From an uncultured Methanosarcinales archaeon (GTDB taxonomy: Archaea; Nanobdellota; Nanobdellia; Woesearchaeales; GW2011-AR9), in assembly GCA_964434885.1 (NCBI GenBank), contig CAYSWQ010000001.1:11327-75326 (forward strand): DNA of 64,000 nt. Reading direction: 5' to 3'. Position 1 is the stretch's first letter, and every line of letters begins with the position of its first letter. The position numbers were made by a program, and so were the translations under genes. A model generated the notes under the pieces. The model worked only from the letters and a program-made list of their open reading frames with translations, was not told the DNA's origin and made no database searches. Below, piece after piece: positions 49,684 through 60,196 of this stretch.

Positions 49684-50439
49684 TTAGTTTTGTTTGATTA
49701 TATTCTCAAACACTTCTTCCAAGGACACTTCTTTGTCCATCCTTTGATAAGGTTTTTTAACCTCTTTAACTGTGCCTTGAGCAACAATCTTGCCTTTTTT
49801 TAGCAAGATGACTTGGTTGCAAATTTTTTCAATATCATGTAAATGGTGGGAAGCAATAACAACTGTAATTCCTTGTCTGTTAGCATGATCAATTAAATGC
49901 AAGATTTCTTTTTGTAAAATTGGATCTAAATTAGCAGTTGGTTCGTCCAATAATAACAATTTGGGATTGTGAATTAAGGAACAAGACAAATCTAATCTTT
50001 TTTGCATTCCGACAGAAAGATGTTCAGATAATTTATTTTCAAATTCAATAAGTTCTGTGAATTCTAATAAATTTTTGATATTTTTCTTTAGGATTTTAGT
50101 TTTAACACCATATAATTTACCAAAATGATATAGGTTTTCTTTAATAGTTAATTTGGGATAGAATGAAGATACTTGAGCTGCAAAACCAAATTTTCTCTTA
50201 ACTTCTTTTTGATTCTTGTGGACATGCTTTCTTTTTTTATTTACATCTAATTGATAAGTAACTTCTCCTTCATCTGGCTCATAAAAACCAATTAATGTAT
50301 TGAGAATTGTTGTCTTTCCACTTCCCGATTGTCCAATGATTCCAACAACATCTCCTTCTTTGATTGAAAAACTAACATTATCTAAAATTATCTTCTTACC
50401 AAATTCCTTGGTGACCTCTTTTAATTGGAGCAATTCCAC
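49684..50439 (-). CDS. ABC transporter ATP-binding protein
   Basis: Walker A GQSGSGKTT, signature LSVGMQKRL, Walker B LLLLDEPT, H-loop. Confidence 0.85.
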   Translation of the reverse strand: MELLQLKEVTKEFGKKIILDNVSFSIKEGDVVGIIGQSGSGKTTILNTLIGFYEPDEGEVTYQLDVNKKRKHVHKNQKEVKRKFGFAAQVSSFYPKLTIKENLYHFGKLYGVKTKILKKNIKNLLEFTELIEFENKLSEHLSVGMQKRLDLSCSLIHNPKLLLLDEPTANLDPILQKEILHLIDHANRQGITVVIASHHLHDIEKICNQVILLKKGKIVAQGTVKEVKKPYQRMDKEVSLEEVFENIIKQN

Positions 50440-50545
50440 AAGATTAGAAGAATCTTTTTATTTATAAACTTAACTATCATCTTTGTTATTGGTTTGATTA
50501 AAAGCAACAATATTTATATACTACTGATAATTTGGAATTAAAATC

Positions 50546-51424
50546 ATGAAGAATAAACTATTACATTTTTATGATAAGCAATACAAAAAATTGTTGGTTA
50601 TCCCTTTTGTACTCTTAATTTTGGCGTTGGGAATAATTGGTTTTACTTATGTTAGTACTGGTGATTTTGTAAATAAAGGAATCAGTTTAAAAGGAGGATC
50701 TACAGTTACGATTAGTAAAACTGTTGATATTAAAGGCCTAGAATCTTTTCTTCAACAACAATTTCCGCGAGGAGATATTGCAGTTAGAAGTTTAAGTTCA
50801 GCAGGAAAAACTGTGGGCATAGCTGTTGATTCTGATGCTCAAGAAAGTAAAGAAATCAAAGCTTTAACTGATGTTTTGGAATCTAAATTAGGTTTAAAAA
50901 AAGCAGATTATGGTGTAGAAGTAATGGGTAGTGCTTTAGGAAAAAGCTTCTTTAAGCAAACTCTTTATGCTTTATTGATTGCTTTCTTATTAATGGGTTT
51001 AGTGGTGTTTTTTTACTTTAGGACTTTAGCCCCCAGTTTAGCTGTTATGTTAGCGGCCATTTCAGACATTGTTGTAACTTTAGCTATTTTTAATTTAACT
51101 GGAATGAAACTAGGAACTGCAGGAATTGCAGCATTCTTGATGTTAATTGGTTATTCTGTAGATACTGATGTTTTATTGAGTACTCGGGTTTTGAAAAGAA
51201 AAGAAGGTTCCGTTATGGATAGAGTGTTGAGCAGTATGAAAACAGGATTAACAATGAGTGTTACTACTTTAACTGCAGTTATTGTGGGTTTAATTTTTGT
51301 TAAAAGTGAAATCATTAAACAAATCATGATTATTTTGTTAATTGGGTTGATTGTGGATATTATCATGACTTATATTCAAAACGTAGGTATCTTAAGATTG
51401 TATTTGGAGAAGAAGAAAAAATAA
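50546..51424 (+). CDS. secF: Protein-export membrane protein SecF
   Basis: GISLKGGSTVTI motif, 6-TM C-terminal core. Confidence 0.75.
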   Translation: MKNKLLHFYDKQYKKLLVIPFVLLILALGIIGFTYVSTGDFVNKGISLKGGSTVTISKTVDIKGLESFLQQQFPRGDIAVRSLSSAGKTVGIAVDSDAQESKEIKALTDVLESKLGLKKADYGVEVMGSALGKSFFKQTLYALLIAFLLMGLVVFFYFRTLAPSLAVMLAAISDIVVTLAIFNLTGMKLGTAGIAAFLMLIGYSVDTDVLLSTRVLKRKEGSVMDRVLSSMKTGLTMSVTTLTAVIVGLIFVKSEIIKQIMIILLIGLIVDIIMTYIQNVGILRLYLEKKKK

Positions 51425-51425
51425 A

Positions 51426-53000
51426 ATGGAACTAAAAAAATTAATAACTAATTGGAGAGTAATTATCTTATTGATTTTTATGGTCTTTGCTCTAGTGGCA
51501 ATTAAACCTTCACCTACAATTGAGGGAGTTAGTATTAGAAGTGTAGATGCCAATTCTTCCGCTGCAGTAGCTGGAATTGTTAGCCCTAATTCTAAATTAA
51601 CTCCTTTAGCTAAAGAAAGAATCATTGATGTGAATGGTCAGAAAATTAATTCAGTTCAAGATTATTTTTCAGAAATTAACAAATTGCAAGAAAATTTAAC
51701 TATTCATTTAGAAACAAACAAGAAAACTTATAGTTTAATCACCAAAAAAGATTCTTTTGGCCAAATAGATTTAGGAATTAAAATATATGAAGCACCAACT
51801 TCTAATTTAAGAAAAGGTTTAGATTTAGAAGGTGGAACAAGAGTTTTGTTAAAACCAGCTCAACAAGTTTCTGATGACAACATGGACATTATTTTAGCTA
51901 ATTTAAAAGAAAGGCTAAACGTTTATGGTTTAGCAGATATTATTGTTAGAACAGCAACAGATTTGGCAGGAGAAGATTATATTTTAATTGAGATGGCTGG
52001 TGTAACTGAAGACGAAGTTAAGGAATTATTAGCTAAACAAGGAAAATTCGAAGCAAAAATTAGTAATGAAACAGTTTTCTTTGGAGGAAAGAAAGATATA
52101 ACTTATGTTTGTCGAAGTGCAGATTGTTCTGGAATAGATCCTCAGCAAGGATGTGGTAAAACACAAGATGGTTGGGGTTGTGGTTTTTTCTTCGGAATTA
52201 CTTTAAGTCCAGAAGCGGCCAAAAGACAAGCTAGCTTAACTCAGAATTTAGGAGTAGTTAGTGAAGCAGGTGGTTCTTACTTAAATGAAAGTTTGATTTT
52301 ATATTTAGATGACAAAGAAGTTGATTCCTTACGAATTGGTGCTAGTTTGAAAGGACAAGCTACAAGTGATATTCAGATTTCTGGTGGGGGTTCAGGTAGA
52401 ACTCAACAAGAAGCAGCCACAAACACATTGAATAACATGAAAAGACTACAGACAATCATTATTACTGGTTCTTTACCAGTAAAATTGAATATTGTTAAAA
52501 TGGATACTATTTCTCCAGTATTAGGGAAAGAGTTTTTGAGTAATGCAATTTTAGTTGGAGCTTTGGCTTTATTATCTGTGGTGGTTGTGGTTTTAATTAG
52601 ATATCGGAAAATAAAAGTTGTTTTACCAATGATAACAACCTTAGCTTCAGAGGTAGTTTTGGTTTTAGGTTTTGCTGCATTGGTAGGTTGGAACTTAGAT
52701 TTAGCTTCGATTGCTGGAATAATTATTATGGTAGGTACAGGTGTAGATCATTTAATTATTATTACTGATGAAACATTAAAAGGTAAAGTAGTTTATGATT
52801 GGAAAGAAAAGATAAAAAGAGCAATGTTTATTGTGATGGCAGCTTACTTTACTACTTGTGCTGGAATGATTCCATTATGGTTTGCAGGGGCAGGATTGTT
52901 GAAAGGTTTTGCATTTACAACCATTGTAGGTATTTCTTTTGGAGTATTGGTTGCTAGACCAGCTTATGCGGCAGCAGTTGAAATATTGTTGAAAGAATAA
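51426..53000 (+). CDS. secD: Protein-export membrane protein SecD
   Basis: GLDLEGGTRVLLKP motif, large periplasmic-like domain, C-terminal 6-TM core; 1-nt spacing to secF. Confidence 0.75.
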   Translation: MELKKLITNWRVIILLIFMVFALVAIKPSPTIEGVSIRSVDANSSAAVAGIVSPNSKLTPLAKERIIDVNGQKINSVQDYFSEINKLQENLTIHLETNKKTYSLITKKDSFGQIDLGIKIYEAPTSNLRKGLDLEGGTRVLLKPAQQVSDDNMDIILANLKERLNVYGLADIIVRTATDLAGEDYILIEMAGVTEDEVKELLAKQGKFEAKISNETVFFGGKKDITYVCRSADCSGIDPQQGCGKTQDGWGCGFFFGITLSPEAAKRQASLTQNLGVVSEAGGSYLNESLILYLDDKEVDSLRIGASLKGQATSDIQISGGGSGRTQQEAATNTLNNMKRLQTIIITGSLPVKLNIVKMDTISPVLGKEFLSNAILVGALALLSVVVVVLIRYRKIKVVLPMITTLASEVVLVLGFAALVGWNLDLASIAGIIIMVGTGVDHLIIITDETLKGKVVYDWKEKIKRAMFIVMAAYFTTCAGMIPLWFAGAGLLKGFAFTTIVGISFGVLVARPAYAAAVEILLKE

Positions 53001-53006
53001 TGAGTT

Positions 53007-53219
53007 TTATTTTTTTCTAAAGTAATCATAAACAGCAGAGAGAATAAAGACTGCTTGTAGAATGATGAAGATTGGGTCTTTAAGATAGATGCTGTATATT
53101 TCAAGACATACTCCTCCGAAGATGAAGAATAAGTCTTTTTGTTTTCTTTTCTTTAGTAAAACTCCAAAAATAATTAGAAGCAAACCTACAATCCCAAATA
53201 ATTTGAAAAGATTAAACAT
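53007..53219 (-). CDS. Small 2-TM membrane protein
   Basis: 70 aa, two hydrophobic helices; overlaps the upstream membrane protein gene. Confidence 0.3.
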   Translation of the reverse strand: MFNLFKLFGIVGLLLIIFGVLLKKRKQKDLFFIFGGVCLEIYSIYLKDPIFIILQAVFILSAVYDYFRKK

Positions 53220-53709
53220 GATGTTTGCTCCTAAATCGATCGATCAAATAAGGGGCAATAAACGCTACTGCAAAAACCAAAGCAATAATCCAAGGATTAT
53301 GGGTTGTGTTCTGTACTTTTAAGTCTTTAATGAATTGGTTGGAAATAATAACCATGATTATAACATTAATTAGGCCGAGAAGAGGAACGATTATTCCAGC
53401 AAGAAGATGATGTTTTTTTTCTAAATGTCCAATATCTAAAACTAAGAAATTATAGAGGAAACCAATTGTGCCGGCTAAAACAACAATTAAAATATACAAC
53501 AACCATTTATTCAAGACAATCAAAAAAGGAATTAAAATTAATGATACAATTAAGTTAGCGAAGACAATTACTACTAATGCCGACCAAAAGATGATCTTAG
53601 AGAAAAAAACATCGTGTTTTTCAGTTTGTTCTAGGAGCGTTTCAGCTTTCTTAATCTCGGCTTCGTGCCAGCCTTTGTTCAATAGTGCCTCTTTTTTTTG
53701 GGGATGCAT
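53212..53709 (-). CDS. 4-TM membrane protein
   Basis: 165 aa, hydrophobic; immediately downstream of minD. Confidence 0.4.
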   Translation of the reverse strand: MHPQKKEALLNKGWHEAEIKKAETLLEQTEKHDVFFSKIIFWSALVVIVFANLIVSLILIPFLIVLNKWLLYILIVVLAGTIGFLYNFLVLDIGHLEKKHHLLAGIIVPLLGLINVIIMVIISNQFIKDLKVQNTTHNPWIIALVFAVAFIAPYLIDRFRSKHHV

Positions 53710-53711
53710 TC

Positions 53712-54446
53712 TTAACTTATTTTTTCATCCAGTAAATACTCTGCCAGTTTTAAATATTGCTTAGATGATTTGGCGCGCGGATATAAATGATGTGAAGGTG
53801 CTTGTTTATGTAATGCTTTTTTGATTTTCTTATCTTGTGGGACATCTATTAGTAGGGGTATCCCTAATGTTTTTTCGGTATCAGTTGCTTTGATTTCATG
53901 ACGTCCTTTATTAGTTAGGTTTAAGACAAAACCAGGGATTGTGTTGTTGTTTTCCCTAGCTAATTCTATCGCTTTCAGAGAATCTATTAGAGAGCTTAAA
54001 TTAGGGTTAGCAACAACGATTGCTTCGTCTGTGTTTTTTAATACTTGGACCAATTCATATCCTAAACCAGCAGGACAATCAACTAAAACAATATCTGCGA
54101 TGTTTTCTAAATGTTCAAAAATTTCGGTGATTTTGTCAGGTTGGGTTTTTTTGAAATCTTGATAAGAAACGGAACTGGGAATGAAATTTATTCCAGAATG
54201 ATGTAAATGAATAACTTCAGGTAATGATTTTGTTCTTCTAAGAAAATCATTTAAACTCGCTTCCACAGAAGCAACCCCCAAATGACCAGCCAAATTAGGA
54301 GTAGCAAAGTTAGCGTCTAAAAGAATTACTTTTTTTCCCAATTTAGTTAATGCATGACCTAAATTTAAAGTGGTGGTTGTTTTACCTACACCTCCTTTTC
54401 CAGAAATCATGGCAATAAATTTAGTCATCTTCGGTAATGCCCTCAA
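53712..54446 (-). CDS. minD: MinD/ParA-family P-loop ATPase
   Basis: Deviant Walker A ISGKGGVGKTTTT, ...ILLDAN..., 244 aa. Confidence 0.8.
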   Translation of the reverse strand: MRALPKMTKFIAMISGKGGVGKTTTTLNLGHALTKLGKKVILLDANFATPNLAGHLGVASVEASLNDFLRRTKSLPEVIHLHHSGINFIPSSVSYQDFKKTQPDKITEIFEHLENIADIVLVDCPAGLGYELVQVLKNTDEAIVVANPNLSSLIDSLKAIELARENNNTIPGFVLNLTNKGRHEIKATDTEKTLGIPLLIDVPQDKKIKKALHKQAPSHHLYPRAKSSKQYLKLAEYLLDEKIS

Positions 54447-54888
54447 TAAATTCTACGGCGTAATCAAAAAATTGAAAAGATACTTTTTCGCAAGTTCCAA
54501 GATTGTCGATATCTAATTCTGTTGTTTTAAAACCATTGTTTACTACCAAAGTTACATGGCGACGATATTCTTCTCTTTTCGAATATTTGGAATTCAAAGT
54601 ATCTCTTAAGAAACAATAAAAAGTAATCATATTCAAAAATCTTTGATCTTCTGGATAAGTATCAATAACCAATGTACTCTTTAAAGAAGGGCTTTTGGGA
54701 ATGGAAGAAATTAAATTTTTTTCTTTCGCATCTTCTAAAATAGCTTCAATTAAAAAGTCAAAAATACTAATTAATCTTTCTAAAGCGTTCCTAATAACGT
54801 CTACAGTTCGAGTGTACTTTAACGTAACATGGATAGTGTGTTCTAAGCGTTTAAGTTCTTCCCGAGCATCTAAAAGAGATTCGTTCAT
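54421..54888 (-). CDS. Hypothetical protein, paralog A of a tandem pair
   Basis: 155 aa; aligns with the upstream neighbour (HTIHVTLKYTRT...IEAIL versus DHILNVTYPLIK...ISSIL; YRRHVTLVVNNGFKTTELDIDNL versus FKRKDRFIICNKNYQMRGITTNQL). Confidence 0.4.
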   Translation of the reverse strand: MNESLLDAREELKRLEHTIHVTLKYTRTVDVIRNALERLISIFDFLIEAILEDAKEKNLISSIPKSPSLKSTLVIDTYPEDQRFLNMITFYCFLRDTLNSKYSKREEYRRHVTLVVNNGFKTTELDIDNLGTCEKVSFQFFDYAVEFIEGITEDD

Positions 54889-54907
54889 CTTGTTTTTAAG
54901 TAGAATA

Positions 54908-55399
54908 TTAGAGGTTCTTAAAAAACCTTTCCCTCTGGGAAGTGATATCTTGTGTTATTTTTAAGAATTCCTTAGTTTTTTGTAAATATGTTTTAAGTTG
55001 ATTAGTGGTAATTCCTCGCATTTGATAGTTCTTATTGCAAATAATAAAGCGGTCTTTTCTCTTAAATTCAATAGGGCTTTTTTTGTGTAAATGAATTATT
55101 TCTTGTAAATCTTGAATTAAGTTCATATATTCTTGGTCTATTTTGTATCTGGGGACGCACTTGTATCTAAAAATATTAAATTTACTTTCAAAAGTATCTT
55201 CGAATAAAGGAACTAATTTGAAAATTCTTTCGTGGTGAAGAATAGAACTAATAGCGTTGTTTAGTGCTAAAAAAAGATTATCTGTTACACCAAGTAATAA
55301 TTTAGTATCTTTAATTAAAGGATAAGTTACATTAAGAATATGATCTGCTACTTGGAAATTCTTATGAGATTCTTCTCTTAAGGCCTGAAATTTTTCCAT
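54908..55399 (-). CDS. Hypothetical protein, paralog B of a tandem pair
   Basis: 163 aa; see paralog A. Confidence 0.4.
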   Translation of the reverse strand: MEKFQALREESHKNFQVADHILNVTYPLIKDTKLLLGVTDNLFLALNNAISSILHHERIFKLVPLFEDTFESKFNIFRYKCVPRYKIDQEYMNLIQDLQEIIHLHKKSPIEFKRKDRFIICNKNYQMRGITTNQLKTYLQKTKEFLKITQDITSQRERFFKNL

Positions 55400-55445
55400 T
55401 ATTTAAGGGTAATATGTTGAATTATAAAAAATTTTAGGAGAAAAA

Positions 55446-55787
55446 TTACTCTTTCTTCAATTCCATGATTGTTTCAGCTAGATCCCCTTGGTTCTTTTCT
55501 AAGGTTTCTTTGGCTTCTTCTTTAGAACAACCAGTCTGTTCAACCACTGTTTGAATGTCTTCTTCAGAAATATCTGGGGTGGTTGATCTTTCTTGTTCGT
55601 GTACTTCTCCAACAACTTGGTAGGTTTCTTGACCCATCATATTAACTTTAGAAACTTGAGGATTGGTGATGATTAAGTCTTTGTCTTCAGATTTGATAAT
55701 CACTTCTGTTGCAGGAACCTCTACTTGTTGAATCCCCATCTGCTTCATCATCTGTTGCATCTTACGAGGATTCATTCCTGGAAACAT
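55446..55787 (-). CDS. nac: Nascent polypeptide-associated complex protein (NAC alpha) with UBA domain
   Basis: N-terminal MNPRKMQQMMKQMGI, NAC domain, C-terminal UBA (EEDIQTVVEQTGCSKEEAKETLEKNQGDLAETI). Confidence 0.8.
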   Translation of the reverse strand: MFPGMNPRKMQQMMKQMGIQQVEVPATEVIIKSEDKDLIITNPQVSKVNMMGQETYQVVGEVHEQERSTTPDISEEDIQTVVEQTGCSKEEAKETLEKNQGDLAETIMELKKE

Positions 55788-55969
55788 CAGTTAGTCACCC
55801 CAAACCAAGCTCCACCAAAAGAATGAAGAATGATGATGATTATCATAACAATAATACATAAAACAATTACGGCGTTAGGAGAAAATTCAATCTTTGATCT
55901 GTACTCATCAAAATATCTCGTTAAGCCACCTTGTCCAGAAGGCATTCTTAATTTGTTATCTCTTCCCAT
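55787..55969 (-). CDS. secG: Preprotein translocase Sec61-beta (archaeal SecG)
   Basis: GLTRYFDEYRSKIEFSPNAVIVLCIIV... gives the conserved G(L)xRYF motif plus C-terminal TM. Confidence 0.6.
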   Translation of the reverse strand: MGRDNKLRMPSGQGGLTRYFDEYRSKIEFSPNAVIVLCIIVMIIIIILHSFGGAWFGVTN

Positions 55970-56023
55970 TTTAGTTTTGAATTAGTAGAATTTTAAATAG
56001 TTTTTGGTATTTGTTTAAAAAAA

Positions 56024-56391
56024 TAGAGTAGAGTGGAATAAGCCACCTTCTGTCAGACCCAAAATATTCATTGAATATCGATGGTCTGTTTTAGCATTCT
56101 ACTAAGCGTGTCTAAGCACTTGCACCAACCGGGTCCAGAAAAAGCCTAAGCTTTTTAGGACCCCCGAGTTATACTCGGAGGGTTTCGCCGTTTCATCGTT
56201 CCCTTTGAGGACGTCGATGGATTAACTCGCTTATTTCTCAACAAGCTTCGCCATTTTCATTCCATAACTCAAAGGACGTGTCGTTTCTAAGCCAGAGCCA
56301 AGAGATTTCCTCTTCTCCGAAGAGCGGTCTTTGTGTGGTGGGTGGACTTTCCTCAGTCAAATTGACCGTTAGCTAAATACCACTACTACTC
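56024..56391 (-). ncRNA. rnpB: RNase P RNA (archaeal type A-like)
   Basis: Minus-strand transcript contains CR-I/P4 5' strand GAGGAAAGUCCACC and CR-V/P4 3' strand ACAGAAGGUGGCUUAU; 5' GAGUAGUAGUGG and 3' CCACUCUACUC form P1; the region is protein-free and GC-enriched relative to flanks. Confidence 0.75.
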
Positions 56392-56412
56392 ATTAATTTT
56401 ATTTAAGTTGGG

Positions 56413-56421
56413 CTTTATAAA
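56413..56421 (-). promoter_or_regulatory. TATA box (TTTATAAAG on minus strand) about 23-30 nt upstream of the RNase P RNA 5' end
   Basis: ctttataaa at the archaeal TATA position relative to the inferred P1 5' end. Confidence 0.4.
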
Positions 56422-56521
56422 TGTTTTGTTAAATTGTTACTTTATAGAGATTACATTTATACTGGTGATGCTGAATAGAAAATTATTTAAACATTAATCA
56501 TTTGAATGAATAAATATTAGA

Positions 56522-56806
56522 GTGAGGTGTTATCCAATGTTAAAAATGAAAAAAATTTCAGAAACTTATGATATGAAAGTATTTACAGACTCTGGAGATT
56601 ACTTCGGAGATGTTGAAGATAGTATTATTACTGGCAACAAGGTTTTCGGATGGAAAATCAAAGCCACTAAAGCATCATTGTTAAGTAAGGTTTTGGGTAG
56701 TGCAAAAGGAGTTATTGTTCCACACCAATTAGTTGGGGCTGTAGGAGATGTGTTAATTATCTCAAAAAGTGCTATTCCAAGTCATGTAGAAGAAAAAGAA
56801 GAATGA
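56522..56806 (+). CDS. PRC-barrel domain protein
   Basis: ...ISETYDMKVFTDSGDYFGDVEDSII...VIVPHQLVGAVGDVLIISK is the PRC-barrel pattern. Confidence 0.55.
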   Translation: MRCYPMLKMKKISETYDMKVFTDSGDYFGDVEDSIITGNKVFGWKIKATKASLLSKVLGSAKGVIVPHQLVGAVGDVLIISKSAIPSHVEEKEE

Positions 56807-56994
56807 ATTTTGAGAAGTTAATAAATGACTTAGTTGTATCTAATTTCTTTTCTGGTAGCCAATGGCATCCAGAACAAGAAGAATTGGATGAAATTTTTAT
56901 GGCTAGTTGAGTTTTTATCTTATTCAATTATGTTTAATTATTTTGTAAGTTAGTTAATAATTTAGTTAATTTTTTGTATTGTAACTACTAATAA

Positions 56995-58050
56995 ATGATT
57001 AAAAATAGAAAGATTTATAAACTAAAACCCATCATTATAAGTAAAATGGAGATGACTAGAAGAAAAATGATATTGACAAGCTTAGGAATTGCGGCTCTTG
57101 CAGATTTAGCTCTTGAAACTCAAGGCAAAGGGGTTGTAACTCTTTCTGCCAAAGCGCTCGATCGTGAAGTTGGAGTTAGTTCTAATTATGATAAAATGAA
57201 AGAACATGCTCAAAAAATAACTGCTTCGGATGGAGTAGATATATTTTATTGGATAACTTCAAAACCAGAAATGAATAAACCAACAGTTTTACTTCACCCT
57301 GGATCATCTTATAACCATACTTCTTTTTTGGGTTTAGAGAAAAAACTTAATGATCAAGGTCATCCAACTATTGTTTTTGATCCGCGTGGGTTTGGATATT
57401 CTGAAGCGCCTGCCATTTCTGAATCATTTACACTAAAAAAATATACTTGTGATTTAGGTGAGATATTGCATAAAGAAGGAATTGAAAATCCAATTTTGTT
57501 AACTTGTAGTTTTGGGTTTATGCCTGCTGTTAATTACACTGCCGAAACAAAGAATGTTTCAAAGTTATTAGGTGTTTCAGCCACCCCTTGTACCAAGAAA
57601 ACTGCTTCAAGTGAAACTCAATTTGAAATATTTGATCGTGTGGGAAGATATGTTTTAGAATATCCAGGGAGTGTAGCCACTGCTTTGAAACATTGGGTTA
57701 AAGGGACAGAACGTGGATATCCAGACCAATCAATATATGAAGGGAAGACTGACATAGATATGTTTTGGACTATTGCAGATCAGCCTTTTAAAAAATTAAA
57801 GATGAATACTACTAGTGGTCGAGCGATAAATAAATGGGATGTTTCAGAACAACTTGGAAAAATTAATGTGCCAGTTCACTTAGTTTATGGATCAAAAGAC
57901 ATGTTAGTTGTTCCAGAAATGGCAGGTTCTTATATTAAAGAAAGAGTTAAAGGTAAATGTACAGTAGATATTATTCCTGATGCAGAACATATGGTTGCTA
58001 CCACAAACCCCGCAGTAGTTTTGCAAACGTTGAACAAATATTTAAAATAA
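56995..58050 (+). CDS. Alpha/beta-hydrolase fold protein with twin-arginine-like signal
   Basis: N-terminal ...MTRRKMILTSLGIAALADLALE fits an RR signal; followed by HPGSSYNH... and a C-terminal ...DAEHM histidine, typical of alpha/beta hydrolases. Confidence 0.55.
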   Translation: MIKNRKIYKLKPIIISKMEMTRRKMILTSLGIAALADLALETQGKGVVTLSAKALDREVGVSSNYDKMKEHAQKITASDGVDIFYWITSKPEMNKPTVLLHPGSSYNHTSFLGLEKKLNDQGHPTIVFDPRGFGYSEAPAISESFTLKKYTCDLGEILHKEGIENPILLTCSFGFMPAVNYTAETKNVSKLLGVSATPCTKKTASSETQFEIFDRVGRYVLEYPGSVATALKHWVKGTERGYPDQSIYEGKTDIDMFWTIADQPFKKLKMNTTSGRAINKWDVSEQLGKINVPVHLVYGSKDMLVVPEMAGSYIKERVKGKCTVDIIPDAEHMVATTNPAVVLQTLNKYLK

Positions 58051-58054
58051 ATTT

Positions 58055-58798
58055 CTAATCATTATCTACTCGAGGAGCTAAGATGAAACTTAAAGATAAT
58101 TTATCTACGCATTTGTATTCTACCTTAAGTGGATAATCATTGTTAAAACTTAAAGAAACCCTATCTGTTAATTTAGATCCAGCAATCATCTTTTTGAGAT
58201 ATTCTAAACTGTATTTGGCTTTGAACTTATCAACAGAATCAGTTTTGATAGCGGTGTCGTTATCTGGGTTGATTTCAATAAAAGCTTTAGATAAATCCCC
58301 TTCTGCTTTAATGACCATTTGGTTCTTTTCAGCTAATAAAGTAACTGATTCAGCTACCACACTAACATCTTCTACTGATTCAGTAAGAATATTTGCTCTA
58401 GTGTCTATGGCAACAGGAAAAGTAAGCTCGGGAACTTTTTGTTCTTTATCTTCCAATTCAATTAAAGGAATAGAAAATGAACGAGTAGTTCCACCTTTTA
58501 ATTTGATTTGTAGTTTGTTTTCTTCTGTTTCTAAGGTTAAAATATCATCACTTTTAGTTCTTCTAAGAACTTGTTTAAGATTGTTTAAATTAATAGCTAA
58601 TTCTTCTGGTTTTTCAAGTTCGTATTGAGTAAAACAACTACTTAATAATTTGAAAACAACCATGGCTACATTAGCGGGATCCATGGCCACCAATTCTAAG
58701 CCATCAGTAGTAATTTTGAATTTTGCTTCTGTAACTAAATCTGAGATAATAGAGATACTGTCTTTGAAATATTTTGGTTCTGCTAAGACTAATTTCAT
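58055..58798 (-). CDS. pcn: DNA polymerase sliding clamp PCNA
   Basis: 247 aa, two-domain PCNA pattern (MKLVLAEPKYFKDSISIISDLVTEAKFKITTDGLELVAMDPANVAMV). Confidence 0.85.
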   Translation of the reverse strand: MKLVLAEPKYFKDSISIISDLVTEAKFKITTDGLELVAMDPANVAMVVFKLLSSCFTQYELEKPEELAINLNNLKQVLRRTKSDDILTLETEENKLQIKLKGGTTRSFSIPLIELEDKEQKVPELTFPVAIDTRANILTESVEDVSVVAESVTLLAEKNQMVIKAEGDLSKAFIEINPDNDTAIKTDSVDKFKAKYSLEYLKKMIAGSKLTDRVSLSFNNDYPLKVEYKCVDKLSLSFILAPRVDND

Positions 58799-58849
58799 TA
58801 ATAACCACCTAGAAAATCTTGAGAATACTTGGATTTATAATAATTATGG

Positions 58850-60196
58850 TTATGGAGTAGTTAAGTTCAAACGTTGTCCATCTTTCATTAAATGAACTGT
58901 TTTGTCTTGTACATAACCCATCTCAACTGCTAAATCTGCTAAATGGTGAGAAAGTTTGTATTCACAATGAGAAGGAATGATGTGTTTTGGTTTTACTAAC
59001 TCAAATAGATCTCGATGATCTTCTCTAGCGGCATGACCTGAAACATGGATATCTCTAAAGATTCTTGCCCCTTTTTGTCGTAAAGCACTTTCTAATTCGG
59101 CCCGGTTGTCTTTATTTAAAGTAACTGGAATGACTGAACAACTGAAAACAACTAAATCTCCTGGCTTCAAATCAAACTTTAATTCTCCACGGGCCATTCT
59201 TGGTAATATTGCTCGTGGTTCTCCTTGATGTCCGGTTACAACCATTAAATATTTTCCTTTATTTTTAGAGGCCTGTTGCAAGAAACTTTGAATTTGTCTT
59301 CTTTTTTTGATTAGTTTTACATCTTTACGAAAATCAATAATATCTAAGTTTTGTCCAGCTAAAGTATATTTGGATAAAGACCTTCCTAAGAAAACAATTT
59401 GTCTTCCTAGTTTTTTACCCATTTCAACAATACTTTTTAATCTAGCTAAATGAGAAGCGAAAGTAGTTACAATCAAAGCGTGATTTTGGGAATTAACTCC
59501 TAGTAAAACGTCTTTTAACATCTGTTTGGCTACTGATTCAGAAGGCATCTTCTTATGATCATGAGCATATAATGATTCGCAAATTAAAGCGAGAACATTT
59601 TTATTTCCTAGTTCTTCTAGTCTTTTGAAATTTGGTTTCTTTCCCAAAGTTGGTTGACGATCGAACTTGTAATCATTAGCATACATAATAGTTCCATATT
59701 TGGTGTGTAGCGCAATCAAAGAAGCTTGTGGGATTGAATGTGTAACATTAATTAGTTCTAGAGTGAGGTTCTTGGAAAGTTGATATATAGAGTTAAGATT
59801 TAAACCAATAACTTTGTTAGGAACATCAATATGGTCATCTCTAATCATCCCTTTCAAAACTTCAGCAGTATAAGGGGTACAAATAACTGGTGCTTTTGGA
59901 AAATGAGAACTACAAAAAGGAATTGCCCCAATGTGGTCTAAATGACCGTGAGCAGGAACGATGGCTTTGACTTTGTCATGCCAATCTTTGATTAACCCCA
60001 TATCTGGAACAGCCTCAACATTTAATAATTCTTCATATTGTTTAGGGCTGATGTCTTCTCTGTCTTCAGAATAACTGATGTAGTTTTCCATGTGCAAACC
60101 AATATCAAAAATAACAACTTCATCATCTACTTTGATGGCAGTACAATTCTTTCCAGTTTCGGAGTAACCTCCAACTGCACATATTTCTACTGGCAT
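58850..60196 (-). CDS. Beta-CASP family ribonuclease (metallo-beta-lactamase fold; aRNase J / aCPSF2-like)
   Basis: HGHLDH motif, beta-CASP motifs; start taken at MPVEICAVGG (60196). The ORF-track start at 60301 would read into the structured GC-rich element. Confidence 0.75.
   Translation of the reverse strand: MPVEICAVGGYSETGKNCTAIKVDDEVVIFDIGLHMENYISYSEDREDISPKQYEELLNVEAVPDMGLIKDWHDKVKAIVPAHGHLDHIGAIPFCSSHFPKAPVICTPYTAEVLKGMIRDDHIDVPNKVIGLNLNSIYQLSKNLTLELINVTHSIPQASLIALHTKYGTIMYANDYKFDRQPTLGKKPNFKRLEELGNKNVLALICESLYAHDHKKMPSESVAKQMLKDVLLGVNSQNHALIVTTFASHLARLKSIVEMGKKLGRQIVFLGRSLSKYTLAGQNLDIIDFRKDVKLIKKRRQIQSFLQQASKNKGKYLMVVTGHQGEPRAILPRMARGELKFDLKPGDLVVFSCSVIPVTLNKDNRAELESALRQKGARIFRDIHVSGHAAREDHRDLFELVKPKHIIPSHCEYKLSHHLADLAVEMGYVQDKTVHLMKDGQRLNLTTP

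What the first reader, a model, noticed from the sequence alone, without database searches (positions are those of the whole stretch)
53007..55399. MinD-like ATPase flanked by a tandem pair of unknown paralogs and two small membrane proteins
minD (53712-54446) overlaps by about 25 nt a 155-aa gene. That gene's upstream neighbour (163 aa) is a clear paralog: two alignable blocks, a conserved H-x-I-x-V-T core, and a basic YRRHVTLVVNNGF/FKRKDRFIICNKNY block. Downstream are 4-TM and 2-TM membrane proteins with overlapping reading frames. The tight packing suggests one operon, a MinD/ParA-type positioning ATPase with dedicated partner proteins and membrane components. Archaeal MinD partners are poorly defined, so the paralog pair is a candidate adaptor or activator.
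Basis: seen in the sequence. Interest (0 to 1): 0.5.

Follow-up and report, generated by a model that had tools for sequence, protein, structure and literature searches.

The report
HEPN-fold pair, MinD, membrane partner
A tiny uncultivated (DPANN, Woesearchaeota-type) archaeon carries a gene cluster, conserved in hundreds of related species, that joins two distantly related HEPN-fold proteins of unknown family, a MinD positioning ATPase and a new four-helix membrane protein; these are concrete candidates for the unknown partners of archaeal MinD, but MinD is an optional member of the cluster.

Summary

MinD is an archaeal-type MinD with an intact KGGxGKT. Its likely start is the ATG at 54428, which gives an 8-nt overlap with B, not about 25 nt.

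Across about 160 related loci the order Sec61beta-NAC-[A]-B-[MinD]-TM4 recurs. The 4-TM protein is immediately preceded by MinD or by B in 100 of 101 cases. MinD is missing from this position in about half of the diverse loci, and A in about 15-20%. The 70-aa membrane ORF is not conserved.

TATA-like signals suggest the transcription units [Sec61beta-NAC] and [A-B(-MinD-TM4)].

The link to MinD is real, but the core of the module is B plus the membrane protein. Function remains inferred.

The parts
54908..55399 (-). Protein A (163 aa): HEPN-fold protein of an undescribed family, the faster-evolving paralog of B. It lacks any Rx4-6H motif.
54421..54888 (-). Protein B (155 aa): HEPN-fold protein of an undescribed family, the most conserved member of the module. 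It carries a strictly conserved charged constellation: R14, H17, K24-Y-T-R-T28, D30, R38, E107-[YF]-R109-[RK].
53712..54428 (-). Archaeal-type MinD ATPase (238 aa from the ATG; an upstream TTG at 54446 would give 244 aa). Its start overlaps the stop of B by 8 nt. It has no C-terminal membrane-targeting extension.
   Evidence: TIGR01969 195.7 bits. Pfam ParA, CbiA and AAA_31. Walker A GKGGxGKTT conserved in orthologues, and the protein ends a few residues after the last core helix. ATGACTAA overlap. Public callers use the 238-aa start.
53212..53709 (-). TM4 (165 aa): four-span membrane protein of an undescribed family. It has a conserved cytosolic N-terminal segment (L..KGW...EI.KAE) and a conserved DIGHLExKHH loop. 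It is the hub of the module.
   Evidence: Four hydrophobic spans. No Pfam or PDB match. 452 homologues, all Woesearchaeota or Nanoarchaeota where named. Conserved motifs. Immediately preceded by MinD (78 cases) or by B (22 cases) in 100 of 101 cases. The gap to MinD is 2 nt here and has a median of 23 nt elsewhere.
53007..53219 (-). 70-aa hydrophobic ORF overlapping the end of TM4 by 8 nt. It is lineage-specific and not part of the conserved module.
   Evidence: ORF. No homologue among the ORFs of 87 related loci at E<=10. In many loci the TM4-to-SecD gap is under 120 nt, which leaves no room for it. Only sub-threshold Pfam hits: Imp-YgjV and LAB_N. Called by one public annotation and not by the other.
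55422..55428 (-). TATA-like element (TTTATAA), with 22 nt between it and the A start codon. It is the candidate promoter of an A-B-MinD-TM4 transcript.
   Evidence: Sequence. A TATA-like hexamer starts at -36..-24 from the start codon in 71% of A genes. The figures for other genes are 60% for Sec61beta, 38% for MinD, 11% for B and 9% for TM4.
55446..55969 (-). Conserved upstream neighbours: NAC (55446-55787) and Sec61beta (55787-55969). They are probably a separate transcription unit.
   Evidence: Pfam NAC and Sec61_beta. NAC lies directly upstream of A/B in 63 of 72 and 41 of 47 loci. Sec61beta has its own TATA-like signal.

Best explanation
This is a gene module specific to Woesearchaeota/Nanoarchaeota (DPANN). 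Its persistent core is a soluble HEPN-fold protein (B) and a four-span membrane protein (TM4). Two components are frequent but dispensable: a second, diverged HEPN-fold paralog (A) and an archaeal-type MinD ATPase.

**Shown**
- A and B are ancient paralogs with a HEPN fold.
- They lack a family-wide Rx4-6H nuclease motif.
- MinD has an intact deviant Walker A and no C-terminal membrane-targeting helix.
- TM4 always sits directly after MinD or B.
- Promoter-like signals precede A (and sometimes MinD) but not B or TM4.

**Inferred mechanism**
- A and B form a HEPN-type dimer: a heterodimer, or a B homodimer where A is absent.
- That dimer uses B's invariant basic and polar patch to hold an anionic ligand, either nucleic acid or lipid head groups.
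- TM4 is the membrane receptor. It presents its conserved cytosolic N-terminal segment and His-rich loop.
- MinD has no membrane anchor of its own. Where present, it docks on TM4 as an ATP-dependent dimer and regulates or positions the B-TM4 complex.
- A and B therefore work as MinD's soluble partner or cargo adaptor, not as nucleases.
For: - **Fold and paralogy:**
- **No canonical motif:** R105 is conserved in only 22% and H111 in 61% of 134 representatives. R14, H17, K24, Y25, T26, R27, T28, D30, R38, E107 and R109 are 91-99% conserved.
- **Polyanion binding:** some B orthologues carry long Lys-rich C-terminal tails.
- **MinD features:**
- **Synteny across about 160 loci:**. TM4 is preceded by MinD or B in 100 of 101 cases, and MinD is preceded by B in 35 of 35 diverse and 52 of 71 close loci.
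- **Independence from NAC:** A-B-MinD-TM4 stays together without NAC/Sec61beta in L086. B keeps MinD-TM4 in nine loci that lack NAC/A upstream.
- **Translational coupling:** an 8-nt overlap between B and MinD and a 2-nt gap between MinD and TM4.
- **Promoter pattern:**
- **Conservation:** B is as conserved as NAC (50-70% identity), which indicates a constrained cellular role.
- **No defence or TA signature:**
Against:
- MinD is absent from the position after B in about half of the diverse loci. It is separated from B or inverted in 19 of 72 close loci.
- The whole region, from RNase P RNA through Sec61beta, NAC, A, B, MinD and TM4 to a tRNA or SecDF, is syntenic. Some of the adjacency may therefore be inherited order and not functional coupling.
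- All loci were found through B, so the frequencies are conditional on B being present.
- B's invariant R, H, K, Y and T residues look as much like a catalytic or ligand-binding site as a protein interface.
- The positions of these residues on the model could not be inspected.
Confidence: 0.4

Rival explanations
1. A and B belong functionally with their upstream neighbours NAC and Sec61beta, and with the nearby SecDF. They would be ribosome- or translocon-associated factors of co-translational protein targeting, with TM4 as a membrane component of that pathway. MinD would be an unrelated gene lodged in a conserved 'superoperon'.
For: - NAC lies directly upstream of A/B in 63 of 72 and 41 of 47 loci, more often than MinD lies downstream.
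- SecD and SecF are conserved on the opposite strand just beyond TM4.
- B-TM4 adjacency persists without MinD in 12 of 37 diverse loci.
- Lys-rich tails in some B orthologues resemble rRNA-binding tails.
Against: - A carries its own TATA-like signal in 71% of loci, which separates it from Sec61beta-NAC.
- A-B-MinD-TM4 occurs without NAC in L086.
- In nine loci B has left NAC but kept MinD-TM4.
- MinD, when in the neighbourhood of the diverse set, always directly follows B (35 of 35), often with overlapping codons.
Confidence: 0.2
2. B, with or without A, is an RNA-binding or RNA-cleaving HEPN protein with a non-canonical active site. It would act in RNA processing linked to the adjacent RNase P RNA and tRNA genes, possibly together with the SIMIBI-class ATPase. 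This would loosely parallel the eukaryotic Las1 (HEPN) - Grc3 (P-loop kinase) pair.
For: - The HEPN fold.
- Invariant Arg, His, Lys, Tyr and Thr residues.
- Lys-rich tails in some orthologues.
- RNase P RNA lies directly upstream of Sec61beta in the window. It is present in 10 of 12 and 5 of 10 sampled related loci, and tRNA genes often follow TM4.
Against: - The canonical Rx4-6H is not conserved.
- The ATPase is a clear MinD, not a Clp1/Grc3 kinase. The CLP1_P hit is E=0.0025 against a ParA hit of 4e-23.
- B's most constant partner is a membrane protein.
- The RNase P RNA is separated from A/B by two genes and a promoter-like signal.
- The Las1-Grc3 parallel is recalled from memory and was not tested.
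Confidence: 0.1
3. The HEPN pair is a toxin-antitoxin or anti-phage defence element that happens to sit beside MinD.
For: The closest solved structures include HepT toxins and UPF0332 HEPN proteins of HEPN-MNT pairs.
Against: - No MNT nucleotidyltransferase partner is in the cluster.
- No PADLOC match.
- The genes are single-copy in the window.
- They occupy a fixed chromosomal position beside core genes in hundreds of species, at 50-70% identity.
- The catalytic motif is not conserved.
Confidence: 0.02

Closest known systems
HEPN superfamily domains, e.g. AF0298/UPF0332 (PDB 2hsb) and HepT toxins (5yep, 7bxo)
   Different: - No sequence-level match to any HEPN Pfam family.
- No family-wide Rx4-6H.
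- The conserved residues lie in helix 1, the helix 1-2 turn, helix 2 and a beta-meander.
- There is no MNT partner.
- These are core chromosomal genes, not mobile ones.
Archaeal MinD (TIGR01969; Haloferax volcanii MinD2/MinD4)
   Same: The ATPase family and the KGGxGKT deviant Walker A are the same. MinC and MinE are reported absent in archaea, and partners are unknown (PMC11312570, PMC13228585).
   Different: - This MinD is in DPANN, fixed between a HEPN-fold gene and a 4-TM gene.
- It has no C-terminal extension.
- The Haloferax MinDs studied so far act on motility and chemotaxis machinery and on cell shape. They have no HEPN or TM4 neighbour reported in the papers read.
ParA/MinD-partner systems (MinD-MinE/MinC, ParA-ParB) and Get3-Get1/2
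   Same: All share the logic of a SIMIBI ATPase dimer working with a small dedicated partner and a surface (membrane or nucleoid). Get3 docks on cytosolic helices of small membrane receptors. This rests on established knowledge and on inference.
   Different: - The partners here have no MinE, MinC, ParB or Get1/2 similarity.
- No centromere-like repeats are present.
- The ATPase is optional and its partners are constant, which is the reverse of those systems.
Dip/Arco oscillator of FtsZ-using archaea
   Same: It is a three-protein system that positions the archaeal divisome, with a membrane-binding NTPase plus partners (PMC13228585; 10.64898/2026.07.23.738820).
   Different: It is unrelated in sequence (a Ras-like GTPase and a SepF-like protein). 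Within DPANN it is reported only in Nanohalarchaeota (PMC13228585). Nothing here ties the present module to cell division.

Membership tests
HEPN superfamily | Up-and-down helical bundle of the HEPN fold | tested here: met
HEPN superfamily | Conserved Rx4-6H catalytic motif | tested here: not met
   The window's B has R105-x5-H111. Across 134 family representatives R105 is 22% and H111 is 61% conserved. Neither the window's A nor the A-family consensus has such a motif. Whether the other invariant residues form an alternative active site is unknown.
HEPN superfamily | Sequence match to a described HEPN family profile | tested here: not met
   No HEPN family in Pfam or NCBIfam at E<=1. No PDB sequence match.
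HEPN-MNT toxin-antitoxin / defence systems | Adjacent minimal nucleotidyltransferase or a known defence partner; mobile, patchy distribution | tested here: not met
   The neighbours are NAC, MinD and TM4. PADLOC finds nothing. The locus is fixed in at least 553 species genomes.
Archaeal MinD (TIGR01969) | Profile score above the curated cut-off | tested here: inconclusive
   195.7 bits against a cut-off of 201.75. This is by far the best family; bacterial MinD scores 101 bits.
Archaeal MinD (TIGR01969) | Deviant Walker A KGGxGK[ST] with the signature lysine | tested here: met
   The window protein has SGKGGVGKTT. GKGGxGKTT is found in most of 98 orthologues.
Min system (MinCDE-like) | MinD C-terminal amphipathic membrane-targeting helix, and MinC/MinE partners | tested here: not met
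   The protein ends about 6 residues after the last core helix. A, B and TM4 have no MinC or MinE similarity. The rest of the window was not scanned for MinC or MinE.
ParABS/SegAB-type partition system | DNA-binding partner plus centromere-like repeats near the operon | tested here: inconclusive
   No repeat arrays in 52900-56600, only short two-copy matches. Lys-rich tails in some B orthologues could bind DNA. DNA binding is not testable here.
Functional MinD-partner complex (A/B/TM4 bind MinD) | Physical interaction or ATPase stimulation | not testable with these tools
Only gene-order evidence is available.

The most novel reading that the evidence does not exclude
Non-catalytic HEPN-fold proteins have been recruited, with a dedicated four-span membrane receptor, as the long-sought partners of an archaeal MinD. 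Together they would form a membrane-anchored positioning system specific to Nanoarchaeota (DPANN). These cells appear to lack both MinCE and, outside Nanohalarchaeota, the Dip/Arco oscillator. The system could organise division or the cell-surface and host-contact apparatus in them.
Probability: 0.2. Interest if true: 0.7.

Novelty: new variant of a known kind. Interest (0 to 1): 0.5.

Why it matters
**The open question.** Archaeal MinD proteins have no known MinC/MinE-type partners. The only candidate neighbour tested in Haloferax, HVO_0596, gave no phenotype (PMC11312570).

**What this adds.** The cluster supplies three concrete candidate families with no Pfam, NCBIfam or solved-structure sequence match:
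- two HEPN-fold proteins
- one four-span membrane protein

Their link to a MinD recurs in hundreds of DPANN genomes.

**Two further points.**
- It extends the HEPN fold, known mostly from RNases of defence and toxin systems, to a strongly conserved core-genome role without the canonical catalytic motif.
- It shows that the stable pair is the HEPN protein plus the membrane protein, with MinD as an add-on. That changes which interaction should be tested first.

**Limits.** The organisms are uncultivated. Every functional statement rests on gene order, conservation and predicted structure.

Tried and rejected
- Pairwise BLASTP of A against B gave nothing significant.
- A first profile comparison built from close relatives was only weakly suggestive. 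It became decisive only with a diverse profile.
- Pfam, NCBIfam and PDB sequence searches of A, B and TM4 gave only noise.
- PADLOC gave no defence assignment.
Structural neighbours therefore come from the PDB only.
- A search for homologues of the 70-aa ORF in 87 loci, and for any small membrane ORF after TM4, found none. It was dropped as a module member.
- I tested whether presence of A tracks MinD adjacency. It does not.
- I looked for centromere-like or other repeats around the cluster. Only chance-level two-copy matches turned up.
- No tRNA lies in window 50000-60000.
- The reading 'tight packing means operon' was rejected as evidence, because 70% of same-strand pairs in the window are as tightly packed.
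- The R105-x5-H111 of B was considered as the HEPN catalytic motif. It was rejected as a family feature.
Full report
**1. What is in the window**

The window is AT-rich (about 31% GC). Its gene content is archaeal: NAC, Sec61beta and a PRC-barrel protein, archaeal RNase P RNA, and PCNA and SecDF in the public annotation of the same contig. Named homologues of the focal genes all come from Candidatus Woesearchaeota, Nanoarchaeota or Nanoarchaeia metagenome-assembled genomes. The same sequence occurs on a 126.8-kb metagenome scaffold.

The minus strand carries a tight array:

| Feature | Coordinates | Size |
|---|---|---|
| RNase P RNA | 56027-56387 | – |
| Sec61beta | 55787-55969 | 60 aa |
| NAC | 55446-55787 | 113 aa |
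| Protein A | 54908-55399 | 163 aa |
| Protein B | 54421-54888 | 155 aa |
| MinD | 53712-54428 | 238 aa |
| TM4 (four-span membrane protein) | 53212-53709 | 165 aa |
| Hydrophobic ORF | 53007-53219 | 70 aa |

SecF and SecD converge on this array from the plus strand.

**2. Checking the observation**

- MinD is an archaeal-type MinD. TIGR01969 scores 195.7 bits, just under its 201.75 cut-off, and ParA, CbiA and AAA_31 are well above theirs.
- Its Walker A, SGKGGVGKTT, is intact and is conserved in orthologues.
Orthologue alignments begin at the MTKF... methionine and public gene callers use the 238-aa form. The overlap with B is therefore the 8-nt ATGACTAA.
- The 165-aa protein has four hydrophobic spans. 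The 70-aa ORF has one strong and two weaker ones.
- Tight packing carries little weight on its own. The window is 91% coding, the median same-strand gap is 24 nt, and 40 of 57 same-strand pairs lie within 50 nt. The packing also runs on into NAC and Sec61beta.

**3. Are A and B paralogs?**

The pair itself gives no clear signal.
- BLASTP gives E=0.22.
- Profiles of close relatives align end to end, but only at E=0.016 and 2.9% probability.

Homology becomes clear with more diverse data.
- Both families are large and well conserved: 129 and 304 hits, with mean column identity 61% and 67%.
- A profile search of 1.84 billion representatives with the B family found 392 clusters.
- An alignment of 40 of the most divergent listed representatives matches the A family over its full length at 97% probability and E=9.4e-11.
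- The corresponding HMM hits the window's protein A at E=5.7e-9.
- The A-family HMM hits a divergent B orthologue at E=2.5e-5.
- The AlphaFold2 models (pLDDT 88.6 and 91.6, pTM 0.85 and 0.86) have the same element order: four helices, a three-strand meander and a long C-terminal helix.

A and B are real but ancient paralogs. 'Clear' was an overstatement.

**4. What A and B are**

No Pfam, NCBIfam or PDB sequence match exists. Structure comparison is unambiguous.
- The next hits are sacsin HEPN, ST0689, TT1696, HepT toxins, Csm6, LsoA/RnlA and kanamycin nucleotidyltransferase C-domains.
- Foldseek independently ranks HepT toxins first.

Membership of the HEPN fold is therefore met. The defining catalytic Rx4-6H motif is not.
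- B has R105-x5-H111. Over 134 cluster representatives, R105 is 22% and H111 is 61% conserved.
- A has no such motif.
- B instead has a striking invariant set at 91-99%: E11, R14, [DE]16, H17, K24, Y25, T26, R27, T28, D30, R38, E107, [YF]108, R109 and [RK]110. That pattern fits a ligand-binding or alternative catalytic site at least as well as a protein interface.
- Several B orthologues carry 100-240-residue Lys-rich tails (P0290, P0296, P0307, P0330). This points to binding of a polyanion, either nucleic acid or acidic membrane.
- A toxin-antitoxin or defence reading is rejected. There is no MNT partner and no PADLOC hit. The genes are single-copy. They hold a fixed core-genome position in at least 553 species representatives.

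**5. Gene-neighbourhood evidence**

I fetched 80 loci from species-representative genomes, 80 diverse metagenome loci seeded with divergent B sequences, and several individual contexts. I labelled six-frame ORFs with HMMs. All loci were found through B, so the frequencies below are conditional on B being present.

Downstream of B:

| Arrangement | Close set (n=72) | Diverse set (n=37) |
|---|---|---|
| B > MinD > TM4 | 45 | 11 |
| B > MinD, no TM4 next | 3 | 6 |
| B > TM4, no MinD | 1 | 12 |
| MinD displaced by 0.3-3.8 kb or inverted | 19 | 0 |
| No MinD in the locus | 4 | 8 |

Upstream of B:

| Arrangement | Close set (n=72) | Diverse set (n=47) |
|---|---|---|
| NAC > A > B | 58 | 34 |
| NAC > B, no A | 5 | 7 |
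| A > B, no NAC | 0 | 5 |
| Neither | 9 | 1 |

Further points:
- When MinD is inverted or moved, TM4 moves with it (L044, L057, L068).
- The most constant rule is that TM4 is immediately preceded by MinD (78 cases) or by B (22 cases), in 100 of 101 cases. MinD is preceded by B in 35 of 35 diverse and 52 of 71 close loci.
- In the nine close loci with neither NAC nor A upstream, B still has MinD-TM4 downstream.
- In L086 the set A-B-MinD-TM4 stands alone, with no NAC or Sec61beta.
- Presence of A does not track MinD adjacency (Fisher p=0.3 and 1.0).
- The 70-aa ORF has no counterpart anywhere, and many loci have no room for it.

**6. Transcription-unit inference**

I counted TATA-like hexamers starting 36-24 nt before the start codon.

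| Gene | Loci with the signal | n |
|---|---|---|
| A | 71% | 38 |
| Sec61beta | 60% | 100 |
| MinD | 38% | 69 |
| B | 11% | 123 |
| TM4 | 9% | 82 |

There is a sharp positional peak for A and Sec61beta. In the window a TTTATAA lies at 55422-55428, with 22 nt between it and the A start codon. A similar element precedes Sec61beta.

The likely units are [Sec61beta-NAC] and [A-B-MinD-TM4], with an optional internal promoter before MinD where the B-MinD spacer is long. In this genome the B/MinD overlap and the 2-nt MinD/TM4 gap argue for one transcript from A to TM4.

**7. TM4**

This family has 452 members, confined to the same archaeal group wherever members are named. It has no Pfam or PDB sequence relative. 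Its conserved features are:
- a soluble N-terminal segment, L..KGW...EI.KAE.ILE
- invariant Asn and Pro residues in the spans
- a DIGHLExKHH loop between spans 2 and 3
- an HNPW motif before span 4

With four spans, the N-terminus, the His-rich loop and the basic C-terminus should lie on the same side, presumably the cytosolic one. This rests on charge distribution and is an inference.

**8. Most likely mechanism**

*Shown:*
- the anatomy above
- the HEPN fold without the canonical motif
- a MinD with an intact ATP-dimerisation signature but no C-terminal membrane-targeting extension
- TM4 as the constant neighbour of either B or MinD

*Inferred:*
- A and B dimerise as HEPN domains do.
- TM4 is the membrane receptor.
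- MinD, lacking its own anchor, docks on TM4 as an ATP-dependent dimer and modulates or positions a B-TM4 complex.
- B's basic patch holds an anionic ligand.

I give this 0.4.

*Rivals:*
- A and B belong with NAC, Sec61beta and SecDF in co-translational targeting, and MinD is a passenger (0.2).
- B is a non-canonical RNA-processing HEPN protein connected with the neighbouring RNase P RNA and tRNA genes, loosely like Las1-Grc3 (0.1). That parallel is recalled from memory and was not tested.
- A defence or toxin-antitoxin element (0.02).
- The remainder is 'none of these'.

**9. Relation to the literature**

- Papers read here state that archaea lack MinC and MinE.
- The four Haloferax MinDs do not act in division; they act in motility, chemotaxis placement and cell shape.
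- MinD partners remain unidentified (PMC11312570, PMC13228585).
- Divisome placement in Haloferax is done by the unrelated Dip/Arco GTPase oscillator. Within DPANN that system was reported only in Nanohalarchaeota (PMC13228585; 10.64898/2026.07.23.738820).
- Three full-text searches found no description of a HEPN-like or four-span partner of an archaeal MinD. The library is incomplete, so this is absence of evidence only.

**10. Verdict**

This is a new variant of a known kind, a MinD/ParA-type ATPase with partners, built from three undescribed protein families. Interest is 0.5. It gives testable candidates for an open question in archaeal cell biology. The organisms are uncultivated, and no interaction or activity has been tested.

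Noticed in passing
window 56027-56387 (-): Archaeal RNase P RNA (RF00373, 105.5 bits) lies directly upstream of Sec61beta on the same strand. An RNase P RNA is also present in 10 of 12 diverse and 5 of 10 close related loci sampled, usually just before Sec61beta. The gene order RNase P RNA - Sec61beta - NAC is therefore conserved in this group.
   Followed up: partly
window 56522-56806 (+): A small PRC-barrel protein (weak Pfam PRC hit, E=0.0055) is encoded divergently from the cluster. A homologue lies upstream, on the opposite strand, in most related loci. From my own recollection, PRC-barrel proteins have been implicated in archaeal cell division. This was not examined here.
   Followed up: no
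P0290, P0296, P0307, P0330; loci L083 8001-8837, L087 6616-7530, L162 5998-6834: Some B orthologues carry 100-240-residue C-terminal tails made almost entirely of Lys with Val, Pro, Ala or Ser repeats. In L083 and L162 these long forms are followed by MinD but by no TM4 gene. This raises the idea that the tail replaces the membrane partner. The sample is only three or four cases.
   Followed up: partly
L083 8847-9506: The MinD next to a long-tailed B orthologue has a degenerate Walker A (ISLGSGTGKTT) that lacks the signature lysine. It may be an inactive or differently regulated ATPase.
   Followed up: no
window 53212-53709 (-) and TM4 family alignment A4: The four-span protein has a conserved His-rich loop (DIGHLExKHH) plus invariant Asn and Pro residues within its spans and an HNPW motif. 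This looks like a metal-binding or enzymatic membrane site, but matches no known family.
   Followed up: partly
window 53007-53219 (-): The 70-aa hydrophobic ORF has sub-threshold similarity to Imp-YgjV (E=1.8e-4) and to the LAB_N lipid-A-biosynthesis N-terminal domain. It is not conserved in relatives and is called by only one of two public annotations.
   Followed up: partly
L086 9803-9873; L135 7007-7077; L134 7049-7123; L117 7006-7079; L105 7854-7924: A tRNA gene often follows TM4 directly on the same strand in related loci. The window itself has no tRNA between 50000 and 60000.
   Followed up: no
loci L006, L011, L014, L021, L030 and many others: Many species-representative records that carry this Woesearchaeota-type cluster are titled 'uncultured Methanosarcinales archaeon'. 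This is probably a labelling artefact of the submitting pipeline and not a true occurrence in Methanosarcinales.
   Followed up: no
L145 1-3686: In one diverse locus an rRNA operon (the 16S 3' end, a tRNA and 23S) lies just upstream of the RNase P RNA - Sec61beta - NAC - A - B - MinD array.
   Followed up: no
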